DNA from: Tricharina praecox
Lineage: Eukaryota
Reading direction: 5' to 3'
Length of the DNA: 64,000 nt
NCBI RefSeq assembly: GCF_024521635.1
Contig: NW_026250418.1
Location: 558,001-622,000 of the forward strand
Shown: positions 3,829 to 64,000 of the stretch, in pieces
Layout: each line of letters begins with the position of its first letter
How positions within the stretch are numbered: position 1 is the stretch's first letter
Made by a program: the position numbers and the translations under genes
The notes under the pieces: model-generated
What the model was told of the DNA's origin: nothing
What the model saw: only the letters and a program-made list of their open reading frames with translations
The model's database searches: none

Positions 3829-6348
3829 ATGGACAGAGACAGCTTTAATTCAAAGCCGCCTACCATCGGACGTGAGAGCGACGGTTCGTTTCCTGGAAAC
3901 CACGGTGGCGTCCCCCGTTCTCAGTCGAATATCCCCAACCCCCAGGGCTTTCCTTATTCTGGTTTAGCCACCTCTGGGAATGGTGGTCCTTCGAATTTGC
4001 AGAAATCGTCCGACGCACCCCTCAACAGCCTCGACCGGTTGTCCCCCAAATCAAGACTCACGAGCTCCTCCCTCGTTTTGGAAGACGGCAACAGCAGCAG
4101 TAGTGGACCGTCACAGCCTTCCAGGGCCCCTCTTCCTCATGCCAATCCGGTCGAACATGCGTTTACCTCTCTGGGGAATGAAAAATTTGACCTTCCTTTT
4201 ACGACACCCGAAGTTGTTCTTAACAAGACGCAGGTTTCTTCGTGAGTAACACCAGTCAAATTGAAGTCTGTATGAGCTGTCCGCTAATTCATTATAGCTC
4301 GGTGGAGAAAATCGAGAGAATCTTGACTTGTTTGAAGACGTATCTTACGATCGCAGACTGTAAGCCACTTAGACATGCGATGATTGGCATATCAGCAGCC
4401 GACTGACGAGCGTGATGCAGATCATACTTTCGCTTCCTACGACCTTGCCGATGCGCTCCGTGACTATGCCGGGGAGGTCAATAATCGCAAATCGCCTGAC
4501 GCATTGGAGAGAAAGCTCCGCGAAATTGAGGCAAATGACGGCAAGCATTTGCATCGTTCCAAGTGCATATCGGATGCTTCTCACTTCTGGGAGAACAACG
4601 CATTCATGAATGATAGGCTTCGCCTCCTGGTCATGCGCCAGTTCTTTGGCCTCAACATCTCTGCTTTCACTTCCTTTGACCTGCAAGCAAAGGGAGAAAT
4701 GAAAGGAGATATGAAAGCAGAAAAGGACAGCAAGGACAATGGAGAGTCAAATCCTGTTGTCGTGGACGACTTGCCAGGTGTGAGACACGACAATAGCGCC
4801 GTTCCGCAGAATCGGGGAGGGATGGCTGACAGCCGATTACGGGAAGGACTTGGGAAATGTCCGTTTCCTCTTTCGTCCCTCCCTGCCAGCGGCTTTCCAT
4901 CGCCGGATCCGATAACCTATACGAAAACAGTGGCTATCATCAAGGAAGCACTCAGTGCTGCGAACAGTGACGAGAGGGGCAGTCCGTTCGACGAAGAGAA
5001 GAATCAACGCCGTATCGACAGAAGCTTCCGCAATTTTGAGGAGGAGTTTCTGATGGGATTCGTCGTACGCTCTTCTCTCGAAGGTTACGAGCACCTCATG
5101 AATGCTTTCCTGAGCAACAAAGAGAAGGATCTTTTGGACCCAATGAGCTCCAATCCCAAGAGCAGCCCACCTCAGGGTAGCAGAGAGGATCACCGCCCGG
5201 ACCATGGCCACAGCTCTCAAGGCAATGGGAACAATATGGAGGACACCCGCCGAGGTACCAACCGCAGCCCTCCACAAGAGAGGAAAAAATATGCCGGCTC
5301 CGGTACTAATCGCAACCTACCTCAAGGGCGTGATGTGCCCCACCGGGATCGGCTGCCTACTTTGGAGAAGCCGACCGACGCGGATGAGATACTGGCAGAC
5401 CTGATTGGACGAGTTAACAATGTTAAGAGACAGCATGGGTGTTCCGAGTTTGTGCCTTTCCCGGCCTCTATCATGTCGCTCATGAAGTCCAGTGGCCCTT
5501 CGGGTCCAACACAGGGCTACTCTCAGTCCCAGGGTTTGTCCCAATTGCCCACGAGTACTGATCCGACCTCGGGTCCATCACAGGTCTACTCTAAGTCCCA
5601 GGGGTTGTCTCGATTGCCCAAGAGTACTGATCCGACCTCGACTGAAGAGACCCCCAAGACTAAGAAGCGCTCTTACGAGCAGCTCCCACAGAGTGAATTT
5701 GGGAAGCAATGGATAAAGAGCCGGACTGTTTCGATTGTGGATGATACATATCCTAGGAACGTTCCTAACAATGAGGGAGTTTCGACCACTGGAAAAGAGA
5801 TCGGCGTCAATGGGAACGTGGCTGTTGGGGTTCTACCGATTGATAAGATGGACAAGACTGCCGTTGACAAGATGGACAAGACTGCCGTTGATAAGATGGA
5901 CAAGACCGCTTTTGAGAAAGTAATGCCGCTCGTTCAGCCTGGCCAGATGCCTTCCGAGTTGACGAAACTCATGGGTCGAATCGCCGGACTGGGAGCTACC
6001 TGCCATGAAGCGCCTTCTCTGCATAAGTGGCTGGGCTCGTTGCCAAATGAAATGACCGAGCAGGAGGTTCCTTGGCTAACCACCCGCAAGAAAAACATCC
6101 AGAAAGACAACCAGACTGTCGAGAACTCTCCGTTCAACAAGAAGCTGACGAAGGAAGGCTCCATCATGGGTAACTTCCGCACTGGCATCAAGACCGACTC
6201 CGCTGGTACTATTCTCGATGAGACTCACGGATACCCTCGCATGACGGGCAAGATCCCTGGGTCTACTCTCAAGAGGACTGGAAAGTTCTGTGTTGGTGAT
6301 GGAACTGACTACTGGGTCGCCCCTAACATGAAAAAGTATCAGAAATGA
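3829..6348 (+). CDS. Orphan hypothetical protein, about 800 aa, 3 exons, with internal repeats
   Basis: Introns 4242-4297 (GTGAGT..CTAAT..TAG) and 4360-4420 (GTAAGC..CTGAC..CAG) join the 138-aa and 654-aa ORFs in frame; DKMDKTA x3 and a duplicated SQGLS-LP-STDPTS block. Confidence 0.75.
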
Positions 6349-7266: not shown

Positions 7267-9778
7267 ATGACGGTTCCCTCTAGCAACAGCAACAGGAGCA
7301 GTAGTGCTGGTATGCACACACTGGTGGCCGGGCTCACGCTATCTTCGCCCTCACCGACGACTCCAGCCGCCACACAAACCTCGTTCACCGCCGCTCCGAC
7401 GAGCATCTTCAACAACCCGGGGCACGGGATCTTCTCCACGTCGTCTAGTCCCCGCACGAGCAGCACCCCGAACAAGTTCGCCGGGCGCCGGTTAAGCTAC
7501 GCCGTGGACGCCGGTGGTCGCGGGAATGACTCGGCGGTGAAGGAGGTCGACGACCCGACCAGTACCCTGTCTGCTGACAGAAGCCATGCCAATACCCCCA
7601 GCCGTACGTTGGCTGTAGCTTCCCCACAGAACATATACGGACGATGTGGCAGTTACAGAGGTCCCCCTCTCCCGGTTCCCAGCCCCCCCGGTGGAAAAGC
7701 TAACATCGGCGGCACGGCACAGGCTCCGATTCGCTTGAGGATTTTCTGTATAATAGAGGGTTTCTACAGGGGGCGTGCAGCGACGTAACGATCATCGCAT
7801 TCGGGACACAATACCGACTCCACCGTCTGATCCTCGACCGGTCCTCCTTCTTTTCGTCGTGCTTCAACGGTGGACCCTGGGCCGAGGCCGATTCCTCCGA
7901 AATCACGCTGTCACCCGAGGCGACGGATCCGAATATTGAGAAACATGCATTTGAGCTGGCGCTTGCGAGGCTATATGGACATGTGGACAAGGCGGAAGAG
8001 GATAAACATGCGATGCCGCTGCTGGCGACCGCGAGTTATCTGCGGTTGCAGGATTTGGCGGAATCGTGTGTGGCATCGTTGTTGAGGAGTCTGAAGACAA
8101 GCAATATCGCAGATATTATTCGGTTCGTCACGAACAGCTATTACGGCCCGCTCACGGATCGTCTGTTGGATAGTGCGAAGGCTTTGTTGTATCGAGATGG
8201 GTGGGAGATGCAGCTCTCCGAGTGGGACGGGATCAGCGGCGAAATTGCGGCCGAGATCGTCGGTTACGAGGGATTCTATGTTCCCACAGAGTACCATCGG
8301 TATTGCTTCGTCAAGGGACTTACGGACTGCAGGATAAAGGCCGCATACTTGGCTGATGGGTCTCCAGTCGATGGCTCTTTCCTAAAGATCCCAGAGAACC
8401 CCGACAACGATTACTTGTCAGCGGACATGGCAAGACACCACGACCTCGATGACGGCGTATCTTCACTTGGGGATGACGAAATAGACGCTGATATCCAGCC
8501 TTTACGTGACTTACTGGAAACCGGAATCTACTACATCCACATGTCCTTCGAAGAACTCCAAAAGATTGCAGAGGATGTTGATATACTCGGCCGACCATTT
8601 GTCAGCGAGGCCACTATAAGGGACGCTCTTTGGCAACAGACAATCCTGCGTCAGAAAGTTCTGAATGCACAGAACGATAGCCCTGAGTTGGGTATCTCGA
8701 AGACTGAATATGTGCAATTGAGTGCACCGGTAAAGGGCGGAAAGAGTCCTAATACCCTAGAGGGGAAATCAACAAACACTGTTGGCCTCCTCACGCCCTG
8801 TACTTCCTCATCACAGCTGGATCTTTTCACGACGGGCCGTGGGCAGAAGCCGAAAAGGAAGTACTTCATCCCTACCGAGGACTCCTCCACCACGGTAATC
8901 GGGGATTACCCCGAGCAGACACCCCACGTCAGCGTTTCGGGACGGGGACAGCCTCGTGGTGGCGCTTCGGGAAACAATAATAGCAGTAACAACGACACTA
9001 CAGCCGTCTCCACTTCCGCGGTCGCAAACCCAGACTCTGGCTCCAAAGAGTCCGGTAACGGCGACGAAATCCGATACAGCGACTTCCCACCATTCCGCTT
9101 TTCCGCCGAATTTAAGAATATCCGCTGCTTGAAGGAGCGCAAACGTGTCTACTCAAAAACGGTCTTCTATGCTGGCAGTTGCTGGAACATCTACATACAG
9201 TCGGTCAAGGGCGCTCGGGGCACGCAACTAGGAGTCTACCTGCATCGTGCTAAGGATCGGGAAGGCAGCGGCGCATCCTCAGCCGGAAACCGTGAAAACG
9301 ACCAGCTCATCGGCATGATCGGCTCTCTAAACCAGAACCAGAAATCGGAAGCGGAGGAAGGCGATACTACACTCCACGATGGCGACACTACAGGCACACT
9401 CTCGTCCCGTCCAGGCGCCAACACTTCCGCCAGTCGCGCCACTCCCCCGCCGTCAACAGAGGTCTCTGTTGCGGCTTTAGGCCACTACGTCGACTCTCGC
9501 CCGATCATCCAAACGTACTTTAAGATCTTCTCACCAAGCAGGAAGGGAAAGATGTTGAGTATCTTCTCAAGTCGGCCCGATAGTTTCAATTTCTCGCAGA
9601 GTTGGGGGTGGAAGTCAAGTAGTCTCATACTGGACGAGGGCATGCTGGGCGGTGAAGGGAATGAGAAGGATTCTCGATTGAGGTTTATGGTTGTGCTTGG
9701 TTAGTACCCTGTCCTCCATTCTCCCCGTAAATATCCCACAAGATTCGCTGACTAGTGAGTGACACAGGTAATGTTTAG
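7267..9778 (+). CDS. BTB/POZ-domain protein with a C-terminal MATH-like region
   Basis: FLQGACSDVTIIAFGTQYRLHRLILDRSSFF (BTB); FPPFRFSAEF...FYAGSCWNIYIQ...SQSWGWKS...LRFMVVLGNV; first intron ends 7722 (donor 7604 or 7661), last intron 9700-9767. Confidence 0.8.
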
Positions 9779-55689: not shown

Positions 55690-56876
55690 ATGGGTCTAAT
55701 ACGGCAACTGGCACTGGGAGTTCTTGCGATCTCCTTCGTCACTTTCGTTGCTCTGTTCGGACAACTCCAACGTTTACGGTTACCTCCTCCTACCCACTCC
55801 GCCAATGTGTCCGTCTTCCAGCTAACACACCATCATCTAGAAAAACACCCATAGGCTACCTTCACCGCCTTCTCCGCCACCGACTCCCCGCATTTCTCCT
55901 ATTACTCGACCACAAACTCACCTCGGGAACGCTCACCCCACTCCTGCAACGATGCGGCAATCACCTCGTCAACGAGAAGCACCCACTGGTGCTGATCTTC
56001 TACGTGCTCCTCGTCACGACCGGCGCCTACATGTTTCTTTCGGCAGGCTGGCGGTACCTCTCCCCCTCCCAGCAACTACTGGTGGCAATAGTCCTCCCGC
56101 TCCCCTACGTGAGCCTCTACCTCTGCGCGCGTAGCGACCCGGGGATCATCACGGCGGGCAACCACGCCTCCGCGATGGGAATGTACCCGTTCGACCACAC
56201 GATCTTCTTCCCATCGCCAGCCACTCCCCCGTGCCGGAGCTGCCGGCTGCCCAAGCCCGCGCGCAGCAAGCACTGCTCGATCTGCCGTGCGTGTGTAGCC
56301 AAACACGACCACCACTGCGTGTGGATCAACAACTGCGTGGGGCTAAACAACACACGGCACTTCCTGTTCTTCCTATCGAGCACGAACTTGCTGCTCGCGG
56401 TGGGCGCCGCGCTGAGCTACAGCATCCTCGAGGAGGTCCTGCGGCGCAGCACGGGGATCGAGCCGCGCGCGCTGCACACCTGGGAGCTGTGGGGAAGGTA
56501 CATGGCCGCCGCAGTGCTGCACGAGGTCTACGTCGGTGCGGTGTTCCTGCTGTGCGCCCTGTGCAGCTTGCTCAGCTTCTCGTTCACCGCGTACCATCTG
56601 TACCTCGTGTGGGCTGGCACGACGACAAATGAGACGGGCAAGTGGGCCGATTGGAGAGATGATATCAACGATGGGCTCATCTTTCGCGCGGATGGAGAGC
56701 TCGATGATGATACCGGAAGGGCGTGTCTGTACAGGATCGAGGCTGGCAGGACTCAGGATCTACCCCGCGGCGCCCTGTGGACGAGGGTGGAGGGATTGCA
56801 TCAGGTCGTGAATGTCTATGATCAAGGCGGTTGGAAGAATTTTTGGGATGTGTTTCGCCCGCAGAAATTGCAGTGA
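55690..56876 (+). CDS. SWF1: DHHC palmitoyltransferase
   Basis: [68 protein letters not shown]; intron 55779-55840. Confidence 0.92.
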
Positions 56877-57142
56877 GGAAAGGAGGGCGTGTACGCTGTG
56901 TATATATGTGGGAGTACTGCCGCGGTGCCGCGATGGTGGGAGTCATAGATCTTCCCGCTCTGGTGGGTCACTGGGTTATGGACATGATGGGTATGGCAGG
57001 GCGCTGTAGATACCCGATGAATGTGATTTACTTATTGTAATTTGTACCTGGGTAATACGAACGGCGATTTTTAGGTTTGGCACCTAGGTATCACGGATGG
57101 AACATGATAGGTGACTCGTTTACTATTCCTTCTACTGGGAGG

Positions 57143-57580
57143 CTCTAAGAAACACAAGCAATGCCGTTCACGTGTCCTAGGGTGTTCATATTCTTCCAAG
57201 TGATTAGAGTGGTTACCTCTTGGGTAAGTACCCGTCGTCAGTGGGAAGTAGGAACGGCGTGGATATCCACCACATAGCCGTGGCTTGTCAGCAGTACTCC
57301 TTGTGTCTATTATCTATCTTTGATTCTTCACTTCAAAGTTGAAAGTTCACAGCTTGCATTCCTCTAAGAAACACAAGCAATGCCGTTCACGTGTCCTAGG
57401 GTGTTCATATTCTTCCAAGTGATTAGAGTGGTTACCTCTTGGGTAAGTACCCGTCGTCAGTGGGAAGTAGGAACGGCGTGGATATCCACCACATAGCCGT
57501 GGCTTGTCAGCAGTACTCCTTGTGTCTATTATCTATCTTTGATTCTTCACTTCAAAGTTGAAAGTTCACAGCTTGCATTC
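57143..57580. repeat. Perfect 219-bp tandem duplication
   Basis: 57143-57361 and 57362-57580 read identical by eye. Confidence 0.95.
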
Positions 57581-59901
57581 TCATCTCCACACCTCGCCTA
57601 TGCCTCTATGGTTATGCAGCCACCACAAGAGTGACGGCTGATGCTATTTCCTCCAGCCAGCGTAGCAGAGGGGAGACCAGGCCTGGCCTTGGCCAACGAG
57701 AGCGCCAACGAAACGAAACGCAAGGGGGTATCAACGTAATCGAGAGGGCTTTTCGGCGTTCGCACTTCGCAGCGTATGCGCGGGGTAGGTAGGAGGCAGG
57801 AGGTAGGAGGTTGGGTATTGTGCATACACGAAACGCCACTTTTATGGAAGTGACTGGCATGATGATGCGCCTCCAAAAGCCAGCGGGAATCGCCGTGAGT
57901 ATCTACCGTATTCACATATTCACGTATGTACTAGCTACCGTAGTTGGTGGTCACGGGTCGTGATGTCGTTTATGTGGGGGGAGAGAGAGATCTTCAATTT
58001 GTTTCGCATGCAGCCTATCTACATAGACTATGGCGAATCGCCACACTCCTTTCCTTCCCACTCTAGCCGGCCGGGGTGGAGACTCTGCTACCGGACAGCA
58101 CGATGTGGCGCCGCTGTTGTTTATGTAGGGGTCTCCTTGGGAGTCGGGACTCGGGACGCAGCGTAGAACTAGGTACTACTAGTAGAGTGTGGTAGAGTGA
58201 TGACGAGTGACGCTGTCTCACTTCCTTCCTTTTAACCGTATCATAAACCAACTCGGATTGAGCGACGGTACTCTACTATGTATACGAACTTACGAAGTGT
58301 GCGTATGATGCCAGGAGGAGAAGCTGGTGAAGTCTCGAAGGATGGGGACGTCGGTGAAGTTGTAGTTGGCGATCGTTTGCGAATCTTCGTTCCATAAGGC
58401 ATCACATTACCTTACATTCCTCTCTCTCTCCCACATGCATATTCCTCACCCCCACTTTCCCACGATGCCCAACCAACGAACGTCTTCAGCTCTCGCGAGT
58501 CGGTCCAGCTTCCGGCTCCCAGCTTCCATCACTGGCATGTCGTTCTCGCTCAGCGTCACAGCACAAATACTAGTATATAGCCACAACGTGCCGAACTCCC
58601 GAGCCATTCCTGATGGGGGTTATAGAGTATCATAGTAACCCACCAGCACCGACGCGTGCAGACTCCGTGGCCGATCATTCGGACATAACATCAGAGCTGC
58701 ATAAGTTGCATACATAAGTTGCATATGCAAGTGTTCTTTTTGGCACCCGGGGATCGCGGGAACTCTGATAAGAGAGTTTTGTTTTTATTTTGCTTTGCAC
58801 GGAGGGGACCTGAGCAGTGAGCACTGAGCAGTGAGGAAGGGTGGGAGTCTGTAAATAAATTGACGCTCGGAGGATGGATGGGATGGGCATGTATGGGAAA
58901 TGTATTATGTCGTGATGCACAGACCGTTGCGACACCGGCCCTTCCTCTCCCTCGGAGGAGGGGGCTCGGAGGGGGCCGGGGGTTCGTATGTAAAACGCAT
59001 GAACGGTCTCAGAGCACACGAGCACGCAACGAAACGCGACACAACACAACGGCACAAACGTTGTGTTGTGGCCCGCCTGCCTGCGCATCGGGGGATCGAG
59101 GGATGGGCGTCTGATATTCCCATTGGCCTTGTTCCCCCTCGCTCCTTCCCACAGCATTCTTTGGAGGCCATCCACCGCACACGTGCAAGTGTTTTCCGCA
59201 GGCTCTCGCGCATTGCAGCCCGAATCGGAAAGCCAGCGACACTTGGATCGCCGCCGCTAGCACTCCCAGGGCCCGGTCAGGGGTCGCAACGTTTCCCTCT
59301 GGAGCGCAAGCTCGAAGCAAGCGGGGACTTCGCTAAGTAAGTAGAGTAAGGTGCATGCAAGGACCCCGATCTTGTTCGCTCGGTCGTTCCACCCACACAA
59401 CCCTTTTGTGGATTGCGGTGGGTACATAGTACTTCTTTCCCGCACCCGCAGCTCGAAGGTGGCTTCTACTTGGTTACTTCTTACCTCTTACTTACTTCTT
59501 ACTCCTTCACACTCTCTTTTCTTCGGCGGCGTCGTCCAATTCCATTCCCTTGACCGTTCTTTTCTGACGTCTGTTGTCTTCTCGTCATGTGCATTGGCTG
59601 AAATAACCCGTTCTCATCGAAACCGATTTGGTGCTCTGTACATACTCGACTCAGTATCTTCCAGGTACTAGTTAATGGCCTTTTCTCGTCGCGAGTGTCA
59701 ATCGAATACTATGATTGATCGAGCATCACTTGATCCATTCCTTTCTTCGCGGACGACGAGACCGGACGGAATTATATCGCAGACGGCCACACCCTTTTAC
59801 TTTTACGGACGGCGGCGGCGGCAGCAGTGTGGGGACTACAGGAGCTGCTTCGAGAGAAATAGAAACTCCTTTCGTCGGTGGCCTTCGCAACAGCCGCGAG
59901 G

Positions 59902-61203
59902 ATGCGATTCGGCGGTACCGCGCAATGCTCCCTGCGACTCTTGATTCGTGCGTTGGTGCTGGTGCTTTGGCTGGGGATTGTGGATGTGGGCGTGGACGCG
60001 GCTGTGACGAGTGGGCGGAATCCTATCACTTCGCCGTTGGAGGGCGTTTACGATGCGGATGTGGCGATTCCGGTTACGTGGAAGGTTTGTTGGTGCTTGG
60101 GATGTGTGTGGTCTTTGCACACTGGCTGACGAGTGATGGCAGCCAACAACGTCCGGAACCGTTTCTCTTATCCTGATGAAGGGGTCTCAGGATGATCTTG
60201 TGGAGGTTGCTCCATTGGCTGGTAATTACTACTACTACTACGCATGGAGTGGCGATGGTTTCGAATGCGAACTGACGCGCATGCTCTAGCTACCCTGGCG
60301 AATACTGGGGAGTACATTTGGAAAGTGGACCACGCCCTCGAAGGACAGGAAACGATGCCTGCGAACGATGTGTACGGCTTGATGATTAAGGATGACCTTA
60401 CCGGCCTCTTCGAATACAGCCCTCCCTTCCGGCTTCGGATCCCCGGCTCGAAATTTGGCAAACGGGATTCAACTGAATCCACTCCGGCGTCTACTAGTGT
60501 CAGCAAAGGGCTCACGCTCGAAACCCGCAAACCAGATCCCACCACGTCCCTCGAACACGAAATGGAAAATGGAGTCAATCTCGAGGCAATTTTCGGCACC
60601 GCCGGTGCTGGTTTAGGTGCCATCATCATCATGATCGTTGGGTTTTCCGTGTGGCGGCGCATCCAGAGCGAAAAGAAACTGGCAGCTTCTCGGAAAGATT
60701 TCCGCCGCCGCCGCGACAGCCTCGAGGACGACGACACCCCTTCCCCCGTCACAGCGCAGTACGCCGCCCACAGACGCATCCTATCCTCCTCCTCGTTCGG
60801 CGATGGCGCCCGTGCCAGCGACCTCTTCGAACGATCGGCGCTCGAACCACCGAAACCACTCTCTCCGATCGCGGACTCCCCGCCGCCCACGCCATTCGCT
60901 GCCCCACCGATGGTATTCCCGCCCTCCGCCTCCCTCCGGCGCACATCCAAAGGGCCCGCCGAGCTCCACCGGCGATCCTCCCTCCTACCCCCATCCGCGC
61001 CCGGCCCCACGCACCAAATCGCCGGCTTCGCATCGACCTCGCCGCCCGAAGGCTTCACGCTCGGCCCCGCCCCCAGCTCCCACAACTTCTCGCACCGCGT
61101 GCCCAAATACTCCGCCTTCAACCCGGACACGCCACCGACGCGGCCGTCCTCCTTCGCCGCAACAGAAACCGACACCGCCATCTGGGACAACCACCCCACA
61201 TGA
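59902..61203 (+). CDS. Single-pass membrane protein: signal peptide, Kre9/Knh1-like N-terminal Ig domain, TM helix, Pro/Ser-rich tail (391 aa)
   Basis: Exons 59902-60084, 60143-60221, 60290-61203; NPITSP...VTWK|PTTSGTVSLILMKG...NTGEYIW...YGLMIKDD...YSPPF; TM GAGLGAIIIMIVGFSVW followed by RR. Confidence 0.85.
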
Positions 61204-61229
61204 CAATCAGGGGTGGCCGCGGCCGCCCC
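61201..61229 (+). promoter_or_regulatory. Candidate stop-codon readthrough signal: TGA-CAATCA plus GC hairpin
   Basis: CAATCA fits CARYYA; GGGGTGGC-CGCG-GCCGCCCC forms an 8-bp stem at 61210-61229. Confidence 0.7.
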
Positions 61230-61593
61230 GAGCCCCTTTGCCGACGCCGCCGCGTACGTGCCGACGCCGTACGGCGCGCTCGCTGCCACAAACTCCAAGC
61301 TTCACCTCGAAGCGCAAGGCAGCAACTGGGACTCGATGCCACTGTCACCCCCGCCCCCCGCGTACTCGGTCGTCGAGCACGAGCGCGAGACCGAGCGGCG
61401 CAAGGAGAAGGAGGCCAGAAGGTACCTGCACCAGCAGTTGATGCGCTCAGATAGCAACGCTAGCTCGGTCTATGGCGCACAGGACGAGTATGGCGGACAG
61501 GAGGATCGAATGTCCATCCTCTCGTTCATTAGCTATTATGAATACTTTAGACCGCCAGAGGAGAAGGTGCCTAGGGATACTTACTATGCTTGA
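61204..61593 (+). CDS. In-frame C-terminal extension (129 codons) of the preceding gene, reachable by readthrough
   Basis: Same frame as exon 3; GC3-rich codons continue; contains SPPPPAY; lacks an early ATG (the ORF track starts at GTG). Confidence 0.65.
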   Translation, partial: QSGVAAAAPSPFADAAAYVPTPYGALAATNSKLHLEAQGSNWDSMPLSPPPPAYSVVEHERETERRKEKEARRYLHQQLMRSDSNASSVYGAQDEYGGQEDRMSILSFISYYEYFRPPEEKVPRDTYYA

Positions 61594-62863
61594 TGCCCGC
61601 TGTGGGTTTTGGGCTGAGACATTTTTTGTTGTGTGTTGTGTGCTGTGTGTGTGCTGTTTTGAGTCTTGCTTTTTTGCGTGCGCGTCTGCGTCTGTCTGTC
61701 TGTCTGTCACTCTTTGCATCTGTTGGCGTTTTTTTTTGTCATTTTTGTCAGCAGTTTTTGCCCTTTCGCTTGCGCGTCCTTTTGTGGTCAATGGTCATTG
61801 GTTTTTGTCGCTTATTGGTCTTTTTGGGGAAATTGGGAGGTTTACTTTTATTCTGCACTTATTCTGCACTTTTGGGCGTGGTGGTGGGAAGTAAGGAGGA
61901 GACGGAGATGGAGGAGAAGCAGGAGGAGGTGGTGGTGGAGGAACAGGTGGAGGATGCACTGGTGATTGGTAGTTTACAATCAATCAATAAAGTATCAGCT
62001 CGACATATCACTACATAATGTGCATTGTGCATTGTGCATGATTTATCACGGTGAGTGCAACTGTTCAAGCTTCAAGCCTCAAGCCTCAAGTGTCAAAAGC
62101 TTGTGTCGAAAGCCTCAGGTGTCGAAACGAAAGCTTGTGTCGAAAGCTTGATTCTGGAGACCAGTGAACATGGTGAACAATCTGTACCACCGAGTGGAGC
62201 GGCGAGGAGTTCTTCAGCCTTTAGTCTTCAGCCATCGTAGGAGTTGTGCAGCCCCATTCAGTCTTCAGCCTTCAGCCATCGGAACTTTCAATTGACGCTG
62301 GGGGGCGGGGGGAGGGGGGACACTGGGCTGCTTGGTGGTTAGTGGGGTAAGTGGGGTAAGTGGTAAGTTAAGGACGGCATCAATTTGTCACCGTCGGATT
62401 AAATAGATCCCGTATGTCATGTATGTCATGTATCACACCGCGTGTCAGTGTGAGCCAAGGAGGTGCCAGCAAGGTTACACGGCAGGTAGCGGACTTTATA
62501 GTTAGGCTAGTATAGTAGTGTCGTGTCATCCCGATTCCTGAAGACTCATCAACTCCGGCGCCTTGTGGTTATTATGTACCAGGTATAGATTTATCGCCTC
62601 GAGGCTCGGACATCCGTTTATCCGCCACATACACATCGCTGCAACTCCGAGTTCCTCACATGGAGGCTGCCTGAGGCGGGCATGAGCTTGCTAGATATTG
62701 TGCGGAGATTAGAGTAGGCACTGGGCAGACAGACAGCTCCTCGTGTGTACCATGCATGGATTGTAGGTGTGTAGTTAGCAGCTATAAAACCGCCAGGGCC
62801 CCGGGGCCATCGCGAAAGAAAAAAAAAAGCTGAAGAACCATCTCGCACAGCCGCACACTTACC

Positions 62864-63676
62864 ATGTCGCCATCGAAACTCGAAACCACCTTGTCCAGCG
62901 CGGCCCTGGCTACGGGCGAGTCGGAACCACTTCTGCCCGCCACCGCCGCTGCCGCTGCCGCCTCCCGTCCGCCATTCACATACACGCTGCGGCCGGCGAC
63001 CCTCGCCGACGTCCCGAGCATGGCCTCCCTCGCCGCATGCGCCTACCTCTCCTCCAGCTTCAGCGACTTCCTGTCCCCGGGGCGGTTCGCATACATCAGC
63101 GAGCACGCGTACGGGTACACGCAGCGGGTACGGTACCGGATGCTGTCTCCACGCTGCGTCTCGATCATAGCCGTGTCCTCCTCCGGGCTGCCGGTGGGGT
63201 ACGCGCAGTTCGTGCGGCACGGCGAGGACGCCGCCGCGAAGGAGGTGCATAGAAACGGCAATACCTGGGCGTTCCAGCTAAAGAGGGCCTGGCTGTATGC
63301 GAGATTCGCGTGGGATTATATCACCTTCACCGATAGGAGTATGGATCAGAAGGCACTGAAGGTCATGATGGCCCATGGAGATATGTGGAAGGGAGAGCAG
63401 CCGAATAGGTGGCATGCCCAGAGCGTCGTCGTTAGTCCTGGACATCAGAGGAGGGGCATTGGAAAGGCGCTCATGCGGGGAATGATGGAGAGGGCGGGGT
63501 CGGAGGGTGTCCCGCTCGGCCTCGAGGCGAGTCCGGACGGGGAGTTGTTGTATACTAAGCTCGGGTTCGAGCTGAAGAGGAGGTTTGAGATTGACTTTGA
63601 GGGCTTGGGGAAGGAGATTGAGGAGGATAGGGGCGGGTTGATGATTTATTACCCGCCTGGGTGCGAGAGGGAATAA
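62864..63676 (+). CDS. GNAT-family N-acetyltransferase
   Basis: LRPATLAD, PVGYAQF, VVVSPGHQRRGIGKALM (motif A), LEASPDGELLYTKLGF (motif B). Confidence 0.92.
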   Translation: MSPSKLETTLSSAALATGESEPLLPATAAAAAASRPPFTYTLRPATLADVPSMASLAACAYLSSSFSDFLSPGRFAYISEHAYGYTQRVRYRMLSPRCVSIIAVSSSGLPVGYAQFVRHGEDAAAKEVHRNGNTWAFQLKRAWLYARFAWDYITFTDRSMDQKALKVMMAHGDMWKGEQPNRWHAQSVVVSPGHQRRGIGKALMRGMMERAGSEGVPLGLEASPDGELLYTKLGFELKRRFEIDFEGLGKEIEEDRGGLMIYYPPGCERE

Positions 63677-64000
63677 GAGGTGTGGGTTGGTGTATGTAGA
63701 GTACATACGATGGCGAAAGGACGTCCGCGAGCTCCGTCAGTTGTCAATGGGTGCTCACGATGGAGGAGGGGAAGGAGGGCTGTATTGAGCATATACGGTA
63801 CCATATTCACATATCGAGTCTCATGGTGGTAGTTTAGTTAATGAATACCAAGAATCCGATCGATATATGCGCACAGTTCATGTTCATGTGGGATCTCGAT
63901 GGCGGGGGGACGGGAGCTGCCGTAGCGCGGCAGGGATCGTGGACACTGGACAGAGCTCAATGCAAGCGCCTGTACCTCATCAACCTCACCTGTAACTGCT

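What the first reader, a model, noticed from the sequence alone, without database searches (positions are those of the whole stretch)
61198..61593. Candidate programmed stop-codon readthrough: TGA-CAATCA, hairpin and 129-codon extension
Seen: the ORF stops at ACA TGA (61201-61203), followed by CAA TCA, then an 8-bp stem GGGGUGGC/GCCGCCCC (61210-61229, one G-U pair, 4-nt loop). The same frame stays open for 129 codons with coding-like GC3 bias, and T-rich UTR-like sequence starts only after 61593. I found no plausible intron that removes the stop in frame. Established: UGA-C is the leakiest stop context, CARYYA is the TMV-type readthrough hexamer that also works in yeast, and 3' stem-loops a few nt downstream stimulate readthrough in viral and animal genes. 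Inference: these independent signals together point to functional recoding in a fungal membrane protein, distinct from the known short TGA-CTA peroxisomal extensions.
Basis: partly seen in the sequence, partly recalled or inferred. Interest (0 to 1): 0.88.

Follow-up and report, generated by a model that had tools for sequence, protein, structure and literature searches.

The report
Conserved leaky stop extends fungal membrane protein
A cup-fungus (Pezizomycete) surface-protein gene carries an in-frame TGA stop that related species also keep, followed by a 129-codon stretch that evolves like real protein, so ribosomes most likely read through the stop to make a second, longer form of the protein.

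Summary
TGA lies at 61201-61203, followed by CAATCA and an 8-bp hairpin (61210-61229). The same frame stays open for 129 codons to a second TGA (61591-61593).

A syntenic locus from a related species (L001) has the same TGA, hexamer and hairpin inside a 32-nt invariant block. It also has a 118-codon extension that differs by in-frame indels only. dN/dS is 0.09 in the extension and 0.22 upstream. The two other frames give 1.5 and 2.0.

Twenty of 23 relatives, including Sphaerosporella and Tuber gene models, end at the same point. In five further lineages the extension appears as a separate start-less ORF. In Pyronema the two parts form one continuous ORF.

No plausible intron spans the stop, and no SECIS was found. 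TGA still terminates the extension. Fungal A-to-I stop editing targets UAG with U at -1, which does not fit here.

Best reading: programmed UGA readthrough (confidence about 0.6). It would give a 521-aa isoform whose extra cytoplasmic tail holds the protein's only PPxY motif.

No RNA or protein data could be obtained, and DNA exists for only two species. This is a new member of a known kind of recoding and is unannotated in public gene models.

The parts
59902..60084 (+). Exon 1 (ATG 59902; signal-peptide-like hydrophobic N-terminus and start of the Kre9/KNH-like domain)
   Evidence: The spliced model has 392 codons with a single stop. It aligns over residues 8-391 with Sphaerosporella brunnea P0024 (47% identity, E 6e-97). 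Hydrophobic segment at about residues 6-37.
60085..60142 (+). Intron 1 (58 nt, GTTTGT...CTGAC...CAG)
   Evidence: splice score 3. Removing it restores the frame.
60143..60221 (+). Exon 2
60222..60289 (+). Intron 2 (68 nt, GTAATT...CTGAC...TAG)
   Evidence: splice score 2. Frame restored.
60290..61200 (+). Exon 3 up to the internal stop: rest of the ectodomain, Ser/Thr-rich linker, transmembrane segment (60586-60654) and about 180 residues of cytoplasmic tail ending ...WDNHPT
   Evidence: hydrophobic segment at residues about 185-210. Omega is 0.216 against L001.
61189..61220 (+). 32-nt block identical in window and L001/L002, spanning the stop (AACCACCCCACA TGA CAATCA GGGGTGGCCGC)
   Evidence: It is the longest identical run in the 1.3-kb codon alignment; the next longest is 23 nt.
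61201..61203 (+). In-frame TGA, proposed leaky stop (UGA-C)
   Evidence: The same TGA is at L001 4958-4960.
61204..61209 (+). CAATCA hexamer, which fits CARYYA and the yeast CARNBA
   Evidence: identical in L001. Motif definitions come from passages of PMC3542737 and PMC4132726.
61210..61229 (+). 8-bp hairpin GGGGUGGC / GCCGCCCC with loop CGCG, starting 6 nt after the stop
   Evidence: minimum-free-energy fold in both species (-18.3 and -17.5 kcal/mol). One pair changes from U-G to U-A; the loop changes from G to U.
61204..61590 (+). 129-codon readthrough extension (weakly constrained linker 61204-61323; strongly constrained part from NWDS onward)
   Evidence: Omega is 0.093 overall, 0.316 for the first 34 aligned codons and 0.043 for the last 84. 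Other-frame controls give 1.55 and 1.99. Homologous to the C-termini of Pyronema P0012 and Geopyxis P0004.
61354..61365 (+). PPAY: the only [LP]PxY motif in the 521-residue product. PPP and Y are invariant in the 8 aligned extension sequences.
61504..61554 (+). Conserved C-terminal motif DRMSILSFISYYEYFRP
   Evidence: 12 of the motif's 17 positions are invariant in 8 of 8 sequences (D101-I109, Y112-Y114).
61591..61593 (+). Second TGA (TGA-T), terminator of the long isoform
   Evidence: L001 has TGA-T at the homologous place. Nucleotide identity drops from 0.78 to 0.56 after it.
61191..61197 (+). CCACCCC, upstream arm of a competing hairpin with 61210-61216 that would hold the UGA in a 12-nt loop
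   Evidence: minimum-free-energy fold of the 71-nt context. The sequence is conserved in L001.
61986..61991 (+). AATAAA within CAATCAATAAA, likely poly(A) signal
   Evidence: The same 11-mer is in L001 at about 5548-5558. Function is inferred.

Best explanation
The gene at 59902-61593 (+) encodes a type-I membrane protein. It has a signal peptide, a Kre9/KNH-like Ig-like ectodomain, a Ser/Thr-rich stalk, one transmembrane helix and a disordered cytoplasmic tail.

Most ribosomes would terminate at UGA 61201-61203 and give a 391-residue protein ending ...NHPT. A fraction would decode the UGA with a near-cognate tRNA (Trp, Cys or Arg by analogy with yeast; recalled) and continue in frame for 129 codons to UGA 61591-61593. 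That gives a 521-residue isoform.

Three features are inferred to stimulate readthrough: the weak UGA-C context, the CAAUCA hexamer (CARYYA/CARNBA class), and an 8-bp G+C-rich hairpin starting 6 nt after the stop, which would sit at the mRNA entrance when the stop is in the A site.

The extension adds the protein's only PPxY motif, a possible docking site for an Rsp5/Nedd4-type ubiquitin ligase (inferred from the motif alone). It also adds an invariant DRMSILSFI-YYEY-RP end. The stop would therefore set the ratio of two isoforms that differ in cytoplasmic signalling or sorting.

Shown: the conserved stop, the conserved context in one relative, the selection on the extension, and the absence of an intron, an AUG or a SECIS. 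Inferred: the decoding event itself, its efficiency, and the role of the hexamer, the hairpin and the PPxY motif.
For: (a) The same in-frame TGA sits in a syntenic locus of a related species. L001 is colinear with window 55714-63693 at 73-77% nucleotide identity. L002 is the same sequence from a second contig. TGA, CAATCA and the stem lie in a 32-nt invariant block, the longest identical run in the gene.

(b) The extension is protein-coding. Omega is 0.093, with dS 1.38, over 118 aligned codons, against 0.216 upstream. Differences by codon position are 18/16/48. Indels are 9, 9 and 15 nt only. The other two frames give omega 1.55 and 1.99. Identity falls to 0.56 after the second stop.

(c) It cannot be translated on its own from an AUG. 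Neither species has an in-frame ATG between the stop and the invariant Trp-42.

(d) The stop position is widely kept. In the whole-library HMMER search, 3 of 19 hits match up to the residue before the stop and end there, and 5 of 19 match only the extension. In alignments, 13 of 15 and 20 of 23 relatives end at the same column. These include annotated Sphaerosporella brunnea, Tuber magnatum, T. melanosporum and T. aestivum models.

(e) In four lineages the upstream ORF and the extension ORF come from contigs of identical length: 9721; 195093 and 163047; 46555 and 9638; 41074. They are taken to be the same contigs.

(f) Pyronema has one continuous ORF carrying both parts. The 837/848-aa models are matched by intron-blind ORF calls of 740-745 aa. 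The extension therefore belongs to this protein.

(g) No intron fits. No in-frame GT/GC-AG pair spanning the stop scores above 1, among 99 pairs in the window and 112 in L001. The real introns score 3 and 2, and the best window donor has no GT in L001.

(h) TGA is still a terminator here, since both extensions end in TGA-T. There was no Rfam hit, and so no SECIS, in 60900-62300.

(i) CARYYA stimulates readthrough of UGA as well as UAG, and CARNBA does so in yeast (passages of PMC3542737 and PMC4132726). The hairpin is the minimum-free-energy and consensus fold in both species, with one pair-preserving change.
Against: DNA is available for only two species, so the stop identity and context in the other lineages are unknown. 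Stem covariation rests on a single one-sided change.

The hairpin is not exceptional for this G+C-rich sequence in the window (z = -1.56; 17 of 200 shuffles fold as well). A competing fold exists.

A run of 10 identical third positions is not rare in an alignment of this length (permutation p = 0.67). The invariant block is therefore suggestive only.

Natural CARYYA cases mostly use UAG in plant viruses, and known stimulatory stems usually start about 8 nt after the stop, not 6.

No extension was found for Tuber, where the stop may be an ordinary terminator.

A-to-I mRNA editing is reported in a Pezizomycete, Pyronema confluens, and stop-loss editing elsewhere in filamentous ascomycetes.

The Geopyxis model is continuous, and I could not see whether that reflects a sense codon or a modelled intron.
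Confidence: 0.6

Rival explanations
1. A-to-I mRNA editing turns UGA into UGG (Trp), probably during sexual development. The long isoform would then be made from edited transcripts rather than by ribosomal readthrough.
For: [quoted passage not shown] Stop-loss and premature-stop-correction editing are frequent and can be conserved and functional in Fusarium and Neurospora, with the stop embedded in a hairpin (PMC11156358 and PMC13123824, passages). In a 71-nt context the minimum-free-energy fold puts this UGA in the loop of a conserved CCACCCC/GGGGUGG hairpin.
Against: Fungal editing strongly favours U at -1, and the described stop edits are UAG to UGG, while UAA to UGA keeps the stop. Here the only A whose editing removes the stop follows a G, and the codon is TGA in both species with DNA. 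A term search for UGA/TGA in the restorative-editing paper PMC10776026 found nothing. The loop would be 12 nt. Pyronema, which has no stop, shows no Trp at the aligned place (...SHPQASPRV...), so there is no sign of a TGG ancestor being restored.
Confidence: 0.12
2. An unrecognised or unconventional splice removes the stop, or joins an upstream donor to an acceptor inside the extension. The long isoform would then come from an alternative mRNA.
For: The annotated Geopyxis carbonaria model (608 aa) is continuous, with a very short junction (..GDNNGY|LKQGSWDS..). This could reflect a modelled intron. AG dinucleotides lie just before the conserved NWDS in both species.
Against: No in-frame GT/GC-AG pair spanning the stop scores above 1 in either species, against 3 and 2 for the gene's real introns. 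The best window donor (GTCCTC at -55) is not GT in L001. Sequence on both sides of the stop is conserved as protein...W(D/G)NHPT before it and QSGVAAA after it. The 34-codon linker still has omega 0.32, with in-frame indels only. ORF calls from two other lineages start inside this linker with matching residues (P0009, P0014).
Confidence: 0.08
3. The extension is translated independently of the upstream ORF, by non-AUG initiation or by reinitiation after termination, as a separate small protein of about 13 kDa.
For: Prokaryote-style gene callers do call it as a separate ORF, starting at GTG or TTG, in several assemblies.
Against: There is no in-frame AUG before the invariant Trp-42 in either species. 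The frame is always that of the upstream ORF in the two species with DNA. In Pyronema the two parts are one ORF. Reinitiation after a 391-codon ORF is not expected in eukaryotes (established knowledge).
Confidence: 0.05
4. The stop is an ordinary terminator and the downstream stretch is not translated. It would be a decaying remnant after an old nonsense mutation, or conserved for an RNA-level reason.
For: Public gene models of Sphaerosporella and Tuber end at the stop. G+C-rich DNA gives long open frames by chance.
Against: Omega is 0.043 over the last 84 codons at dS near 2. Substitutions show three-base periodicity, indels are in frame only, and the other-frame controls are above 1.5. Twenty-eight residues are invariant across the 8 aligned sequences, which represent 6 lineages. 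A remnant would not keep this pattern.
Confidence: 0.03
5. UGA is decoded as selenocysteine, or is reassigned in this organism.
For: The codon is UGA.
Against: There was no SECIS or any other Rfam match at E up to 1 in 60900-62300. The same extension ends in TGA in both species. Ascomycota are not known to have the selenocysteine machinery (recalled).
Confidence: 0.01

Closest known systems
Type I (tobamovirus-type) readthrough: stop followed by CAR-YYA; yeast CARNBA contexts
   Same: The hexamer CAAUCA directly after the stop fits both consensus patterns. CARYYA also works on UGA (passages of PMC3542737 and PMC4132726). The extension is long and functional.
   Different: This is a cellular fungal gene, not a plant-virus replicase. 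The stop is UGA rather than the usual UAG. A compact hairpin follows the hexamer. The activity of the hexamer in this fungus is untested.
Fungal and animal UGA-CU readthrough giving cryptic peroxisomal PTS1 isoforms (Ustilago maydis Pgk1, Art1 and Rpe1; human LDHB and MDH1; PMC4207609)
   Same: A chromosomal fungal gene with a leaky UGA-C and a conserved stop, giving dual isoforms from one mRNA.
   Different: The context here is UGA-CA, not UGA-CU. The extension is 129 codons rather than about a dozen. It ends ...TYYA and so has no PTS1-like tripeptide (PTS1 consensus recalled). The protein is a membrane protein, not a cytosolic enzyme.
Fungal A-to-I stop-loss and premature-stop-correction editing (F. 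graminearum PUK1 and DBF2; PMC11156358, PMC13123824)
   Same: A conserved in-frame stop in a filamentous ascomycete with functional downstream coding sequence. A hairpin can hold the stop. Lineages with and without the stop coexist.
   Different: Those cases use UAG with U at -1. Here the codon is UGA, with G before the only editable A.
Type II viral and Drosophila-type readthrough with a 3' stem-loop (alphaviruses; hdc and kelch recalled)
   Same: UGA-C plus a downstream stem-loop close to the stop, and a long extension.
   Different: The codon after the stop is CAA, not CGG or CUA. The stem is a compact 8 bp starting 6 nt after the stop, rather than an extended structure at about 8 nt.
Yeast PDE2 readthrough (Namy et al. 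2002, seen only in the reference list of PMC4132726; content recalled)
   Same: A fungal cellular gene in which readthrough changes the properties of the protein through a C-terminal extension.
   Different: The PDE2 extension is short and affects stability (recalled). There is no homology with this gene.

Membership tests
Programmed stop-codon readthrough (general) | The in-frame stop is conserved among orthologues rather than replaced by sense codons | tested here: met
   The same TGA is in syntenic L001/L002. Twenty of 23 relatives end at this column, and 3 continue (2 Pyronema, 1 Geopyxis).
Programmed stop-codon readthrough (general) | The downstream in-frame region evolves as protein-coding sequence up to the next stop | tested here: met
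   Omega is 0.093, indels are multiples of 3, and the other-frame controls give 1.55 and 1.99. Identity drops after the second stop.
Programmed stop-codon readthrough (general) | No splicing, editing or independent start accounts for the extension | tested here: inconclusive
   The intron scan and the ATG check were negative. RNA-level editing and splicing could not be checked.
Programmed stop-codon readthrough (general) | An extended protein or ribosome footprints are observed | not testable with these tools
   No expression data could be reached.
Type I readthrough context (CARYYA / yeast CARNBA) | The hexamer directly 3' of the stop matches CAR-YYA | tested here: met
   CAA TCA at 61204-61209, identical in L001. 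Consensus.
Type II readthrough (UGA-CGG/CUA plus extended stem-loop) | UGA followed by CGG or CUA | tested here: not met
   The next codon is CAA.
Type II readthrough (UGA-CGG/CUA plus extended stem-loop) | A conserved 3' stem-loop beginning about 8 nt after the stop | tested here: inconclusive
   An 8-bp stem begins 6 nt after the stop and is kept in both species with one U-G to U-A change. It is compact rather than extended, and only two species were available.
Fungal peroxisomal readthrough isoforms (UGA-CU plus PTS1) | UGA followed by CU | tested here: not met
   UGA is followed by CA. Motif from PMC4207609.
Fungal peroxisomal readthrough isoforms (UGA-CU plus PTS1) | The extension ends in a PTS1 tripeptide | tested here: not met
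   The extension ends ...DTYYA. The PTS1 consensus is recalled and was not scored with a predictor.
Fungal A-to-I stop-loss / premature-stop-correction editing | UAG stop with U at -1 of the edited A | tested here: not met
   The codon is UGA in both species, and the A follows a G. Preference.
Fungal A-to-I stop-loss / premature-stop-correction editing | The edited A lies in a hairpin loop | tested here: inconclusive
   The stop lies in a 12-nt loop in the 71-nt fold, but not in the 47-nt folds.
Fungal A-to-I stop-loss / premature-stop-correction editing | A-to-G change seen in RNA reads | not testable with these tools
Selenoprotein | A SECIS element in the 3' UTR | tested here: not met
   No Rfam match at E up to 1 in 60900-62300.
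Kre9/KNH-like domain proteins (Pfam PF10342) | An N-terminal Kre9_KNH Ig-like domain above the gathering score | tested here: met
   Orthologues P0024 (62.5 bits, cut-off 24.6) and P0012 (56.7 bits) match. The window's spliced model aligns with P0024 over residues 8-391 and with the P0012 N-terminus at 58% identity. The window protein itself was scanned only as single-exon fragments, which gave no hit.

The most novel reading that the evidence does not exclude
The stop could be an ancient, regulated isoform switch kept across Pezizales. Two mutually exclusive conserved hairpins share the GGGGUGG arm. One holds the UGA in its loop, and the other sits 6 nt downstream. Together they would make decoding of the stop conditional, whether by efficient readthrough or by an A-to-I edit of UGA at a G-preceded adenosine, a specificity not described for the fungal editing enzyme. 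The switch would decide whether a Kre9/KNH-type surface protein carries a PPxY-bearing cytoplasmic tail. That the extension is more constrained than the constitutive tail (omega 0.09 against 0.22) suggests the long form is the main functional species rather than a minor by-product.
Probability: 0.15. Interest if true: 0.8.

Novelty: new member of a known kind. Interest (0 to 1): 0.66.

Why it matters
Documented functional readthrough in fungal cellular genes is limited to a few short extensions: peroxisomal PTS1 tags after UGA-CU, and a handful of yeast genes. This would be a long, strongly selected, domain-like extension on a membrane protein. It combines a virus-type hexamer with a hairpin and is kept in several families of cup fungi and truffles.

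It also exposes an annotation gap. The extension is absent from the public models of Sphaerosporella brunnea seen here and from 20 of the 23 relatives examined. In five lineages the same gene is split into two ORF calls.

The case offers a natural comparison. Most lineages have the stop and Pyronema has a continuous ORF, so one could ask what a leaky stop buys over a fixed sense codon. It also sets ribosomal readthrough against A-to-I stop editing within a fungal class where such editing has been reported.

Searches of the held literature found no paper describing this gene or any readthrough case in Pezizomycetes.

Tried and rejected
- Own-genome search: no genome is held for this window.
- More DNA from relatives: the single metagenome scan gave L001 and L002, which are the same species. 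Scans of genome contigs and viral contigs with the extension profile found no relative: 83 and 33 pattern matches, none confirmed.
- Extension profile against longer proteins: only Pyronema and Geopyxis were found.
- ESM Atlas on the extension: best score 0.86, below the 0.9 lead threshold, so nothing usable.
- Rfam: no match.
- AlphaFold2 of the extension with 8 sequences: mean pLDDT 58.8, with only helices at 54-81 and 105-111. This is too weak for a fold search, and none was run.
- Third-position conservation around the stop: a run of 10 identical third positions is not significant (permutation p = 0.67). I do not claim synonymous-site constraint from two species.
- The local-pair alignment misplaces the junction of the three continuous proteins. 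I use it only for the 20 that end. For Pyronema I rely, and the Geopyxis junction stays unresolved.
- Earlier scan notes: nothing on this genome. Only unrelated phage cases came up.
- Pfam on single exons of the window gene gave no hit.
Full report
**1. The observation**

- ACA TGA lies at 61198-61203 and CAA TCA at 61204-61209.
- The stem is GGGGTGGC (61210-61217), the loop CGCG, and the other arm GCCGCCCC (61222-61229), with one U-G pair.
- The frame of the upstream ORF stays open from 61204 to a second TGA at 61591-61593, which is 129 codons.
- GC3 is 0.752 in the extension and 0.723 in exon 3. Overall GC drops to 0.466 after the second stop.

The hairpin is the minimum-free-energy fold of 37-nt and 47-nt contexts, at -18.3 kcal/mol. 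In the window it is not exceptional for such G+C-rich sequence: z = -1.56, and 17 of 200 shuffles fold as well. In a 71-nt context a competing hairpin is preferred. It pairs CCACCCC (61191-61197) with GGGGUGG (61210-61216) and places the stop in a 12-nt loop.

Another frame of the extension is open for 78 codons. The open frame alone therefore proves little.

**2. The gene**

ATG 59902 and two short introns (60085-60142 and 60222-60289) give a 392-codon model. The model aligns over residues 8-391 with the annotated Sphaerosporella brunnea protein P0024, at 47% identity and E 6e-97.

P0024 and the Pyronema orthologue P0012 carry a Kre9_KNH domain, PF10342. The window protein has two hydrophobic segments: an N-terminal one and a single transmembrane segment at residues about 185-210, window 60586-60654. 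The stop and the extension therefore lie in the cytoplasmic tail.

Named relatives are all Pezizomycetes: Sphaerosporella, Pyronema, Geopyxis and Tuber.

**3. A relative with DNA**

One metagenome scan returned two loci with the same sequence, L001 and L002. L001 is colinear with the window from 55714 to 63693, across three genes, at 73-77% nucleotide identity. It is therefore the orthologous locus of a related species.

It has the same in-frame TGA (L001 4958-4960), the same CAATCA and the same 5' stem arm. All of these lie in a 32-nt block identical between the species (window 61189-61220). This is the longest identical run in the 1.3-kb codon alignment; the next longest is 23 nt.
- The 3' arm is GCCACCCC, so the U-G pair becomes U-A.
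- The loop changes from CGCG to CGCU.
- The hairpin is again the minimum-free-energy fold, at -17.5 kcal/mol and z = -3.37, with 0 of 200 shuffles as good.

I do not claim more than 'suggestive' for these cis-signals. A run of 10 identical third positions is common in an alignment of this length (permutation p = 0.67). There is also only one informative stem change.

**4. The extension is translated sequence**

In L001 the frame continues for 118 codons to a TGA at the homologous place. The two extensions differ by indels of 9, 9 and 15 nt only.

Nei-Gojobori estimates:

| Region | Aligned codons | Omega | dS | Differences by codon position |
|---|---|---|---|---|
| Upstream (exon 3) | 302 | 0.216 | 0.74 | 51/35/119 |
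| Extension | 118 | 0.093 | 1.38 | 18/16/48 |

Splitting the extension:
- The first 34 aligned codons, a linker, give omega 0.316.
- The last 84 codons give omega 0.043.
- Reading the same columns in the other two frames gives 1.55 and 1.99.

Nucleotide identity is 0.78 in the extension and 0.56 after the second stop. Neither species has an in-frame ATG between the stop and the invariant Trp-42.

**5. Breadth**

An exhaustive HMMER search with the tail plus extension (X at the stop) found 19 proteins at E up to 0.001.
- Three (P0006, P0007, P0015) match up to the residue before the stop and end exactly there.
- Five (P0009, P0014, P0016, P0019, P0023) match only the extension.

These short proteins start at internal Met, Val or Leu and lack the N-terminal exons. 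I take them to be intron-blind ORF calls on fungal contigs, which is an inference. If so, their ends are real stops in the DNA.

In alignments, 13 of 15 relatives end at the same column, and so do 20 of 23 once the six further hits are added. The endings are ...NHPT...HPL...HAL...LPP...QPP and the like. They include the annotated models of Sphaerosporella brunnea, Tuber magnatum, T. melanosporum and T. aestivum.

Upstream and extension ORFs come from contigs of identical length in four lineages:
- 9721;
- 195093 and 163047;
- 46555 and 9638;
- 41074.

I read these as the same contigs, so the gene is split there as it is in the window.

Three proteins continue past the point. Two are Pyronema proteins of 837 and 848 aa, and intron-blind ORF calls of 740-745 aa are also continuous, so Pyronema has no stop there. 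The third is the Geopyxis model of 608 aa. Their C-termini carry the extension motifs, and a profile of the extension finds only these two genera among longer proteins. The Geopyxis junction could not be resolved without DNA. No extension was seen for Tuber.

**6. What the extension contains**

Eight aligned sequences from six lineages share 28 invariant residues. These include W..(P)L(S)PPP(P)-(A/T)-Y-S, SSVYG-QD and DRMSILSFI-YYEY-RP. PPAY (61354-61365) is the only [LP]PxY motif in the 521-residue product.

The extension has no Pfam family and no useful Atlas neighbour. AlphaFold2 gives a mostly low-confidence chain with a helix at 54-81. A role for the PPxY motif in binding an Rsp5/Nedd4-type ligase is an inference from the motif alone.

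**7. Mechanism**

*Splicing.* Among in-frame GT/GC-AG pairs of 30-300 nt spanning the stop, none scores above 1 on a donor/branch/acceptor score. This covers 99 pairs in the window and 112 in L001. The gene's own introns score 3 and 2, and the best window donor is not GT in L001. Protein-level conservation also runs right up to the stop and resumes right after it.

*Selenocysteine or reassignment.* There is no SECIS or other Rfam match, and TGA terminates both extensions.

*A-to-I editing.* This is the serious rival, because editing occurs in a Pezizomycete (Pyronema confluens) and stop-loss editing can be conserved and functional. However, the passages I read describe a strong preference for U at -1 and edits of UAG to UGG, while UAA to UGA keeps the stop. 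Here the codon is TGA in both species and the critical A follows a G.

*Readthrough.* This fits the known rules.
- UGA-C is a weak terminator (and established knowledge).
- CAAUCA fits CARYYA, which also works on UGA, and fits the yeast CARNBA.
- A stable hairpin follows closely.

I put ribosomal readthrough at about 0.6, editing at 0.12, cryptic splicing at 0.08, independent translation at 0.05, and no translation at 0.03.

**8. Comparison with known systems and novelty**

This is not the fungal UGA-CU/PTS1 class. The context is different, the extension is ten times longer, and it ends in ...YYA. It is not type II either, because CAA follows the stop where type II has CGG or CUA. It works like type I (CARYYA) readthrough with an added compact stem.

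Full-text searches returned no paper on this gene or on readthrough in Pezizomycetes. I read passages only of PMC11156358, PMC13123824, PMC5381528, PMC4207609, PMC3542737, PMC4132726 and PMC4615788. For PMC10776026 I ran a term search with no hits. No supplements were opened.

I rate it a new member of a known kind, with interest 0.66. The evolutionary evidence for recoding is strong, but the decoding event itself is unobserved.

Noticed in passing
window 61191-61216 (and L001 4948-4973): A second conserved hairpin pairs CCACCCC with GGGGUGG and encloses the UGA in a 12-nt loop. It excludes the downstream hairpin because both use the GGGGUGG arm. In L001 the two outer arms are the identical heptamer CCACCCC. 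It may be a conformational switch or a coincidence of Pro/Gly codons.
   Followed up: partly
window 62864-63676 (+): The downstream neighbour is an intron-less 270-aa GNAT acetyltransferase gene (Pfam Acetyltransf_7, Acetyltransf_1 and Acetyltransf_10). It is conserved and colinear in L001 at 7537-8252.
   Followed up: partly
window 59236-59357 versus L001 2958-3083: A 132-nt block about 550-670 nt upstream of the ATG is 74% identical between the two species, while the surrounding non-coding DNA does not align. It may be a promoter or 5'-UTR element.
   Followed up: no
window 61981-61991; L001 about 5548-5558: The 11-mer CAATCAATAAA, which contains AATAAA, occurs in both species downstream of the second stop: 390 nt after it in the window and about 235 nt after it in L001. 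It is a likely poly(A) signal, placed after the extension rather than after the first stop.
   Followed up: partly
window 61620-61700 and 62020-62160: The 3' region holds simple repeats: TG/GTCT runs, GTGCATT x3, CAAGCCT/CAAGCTT repeats and TGTCGAAAGC repeats (read). No function is suggested.
   Followed up: no
public protein models P0024 (Sphaerosporella brunnea) and P0004 (Geopyxis carbonaria): The annotated Sphaerosporella model stops at ...NHPT and omits the conserved extension. The Geopyxis model is continuous, but with a very short junction (..GDNNGY|LKQGSWDS..) that may be a modelled intron hiding a stop. Gene models of this family probably need revision.
   Followed up: partly
window 55714-56876: A region 77% identical to L001 3-1161 indicates a conserved upstream neighbour gene. 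It was not examined.
   Followed up: no
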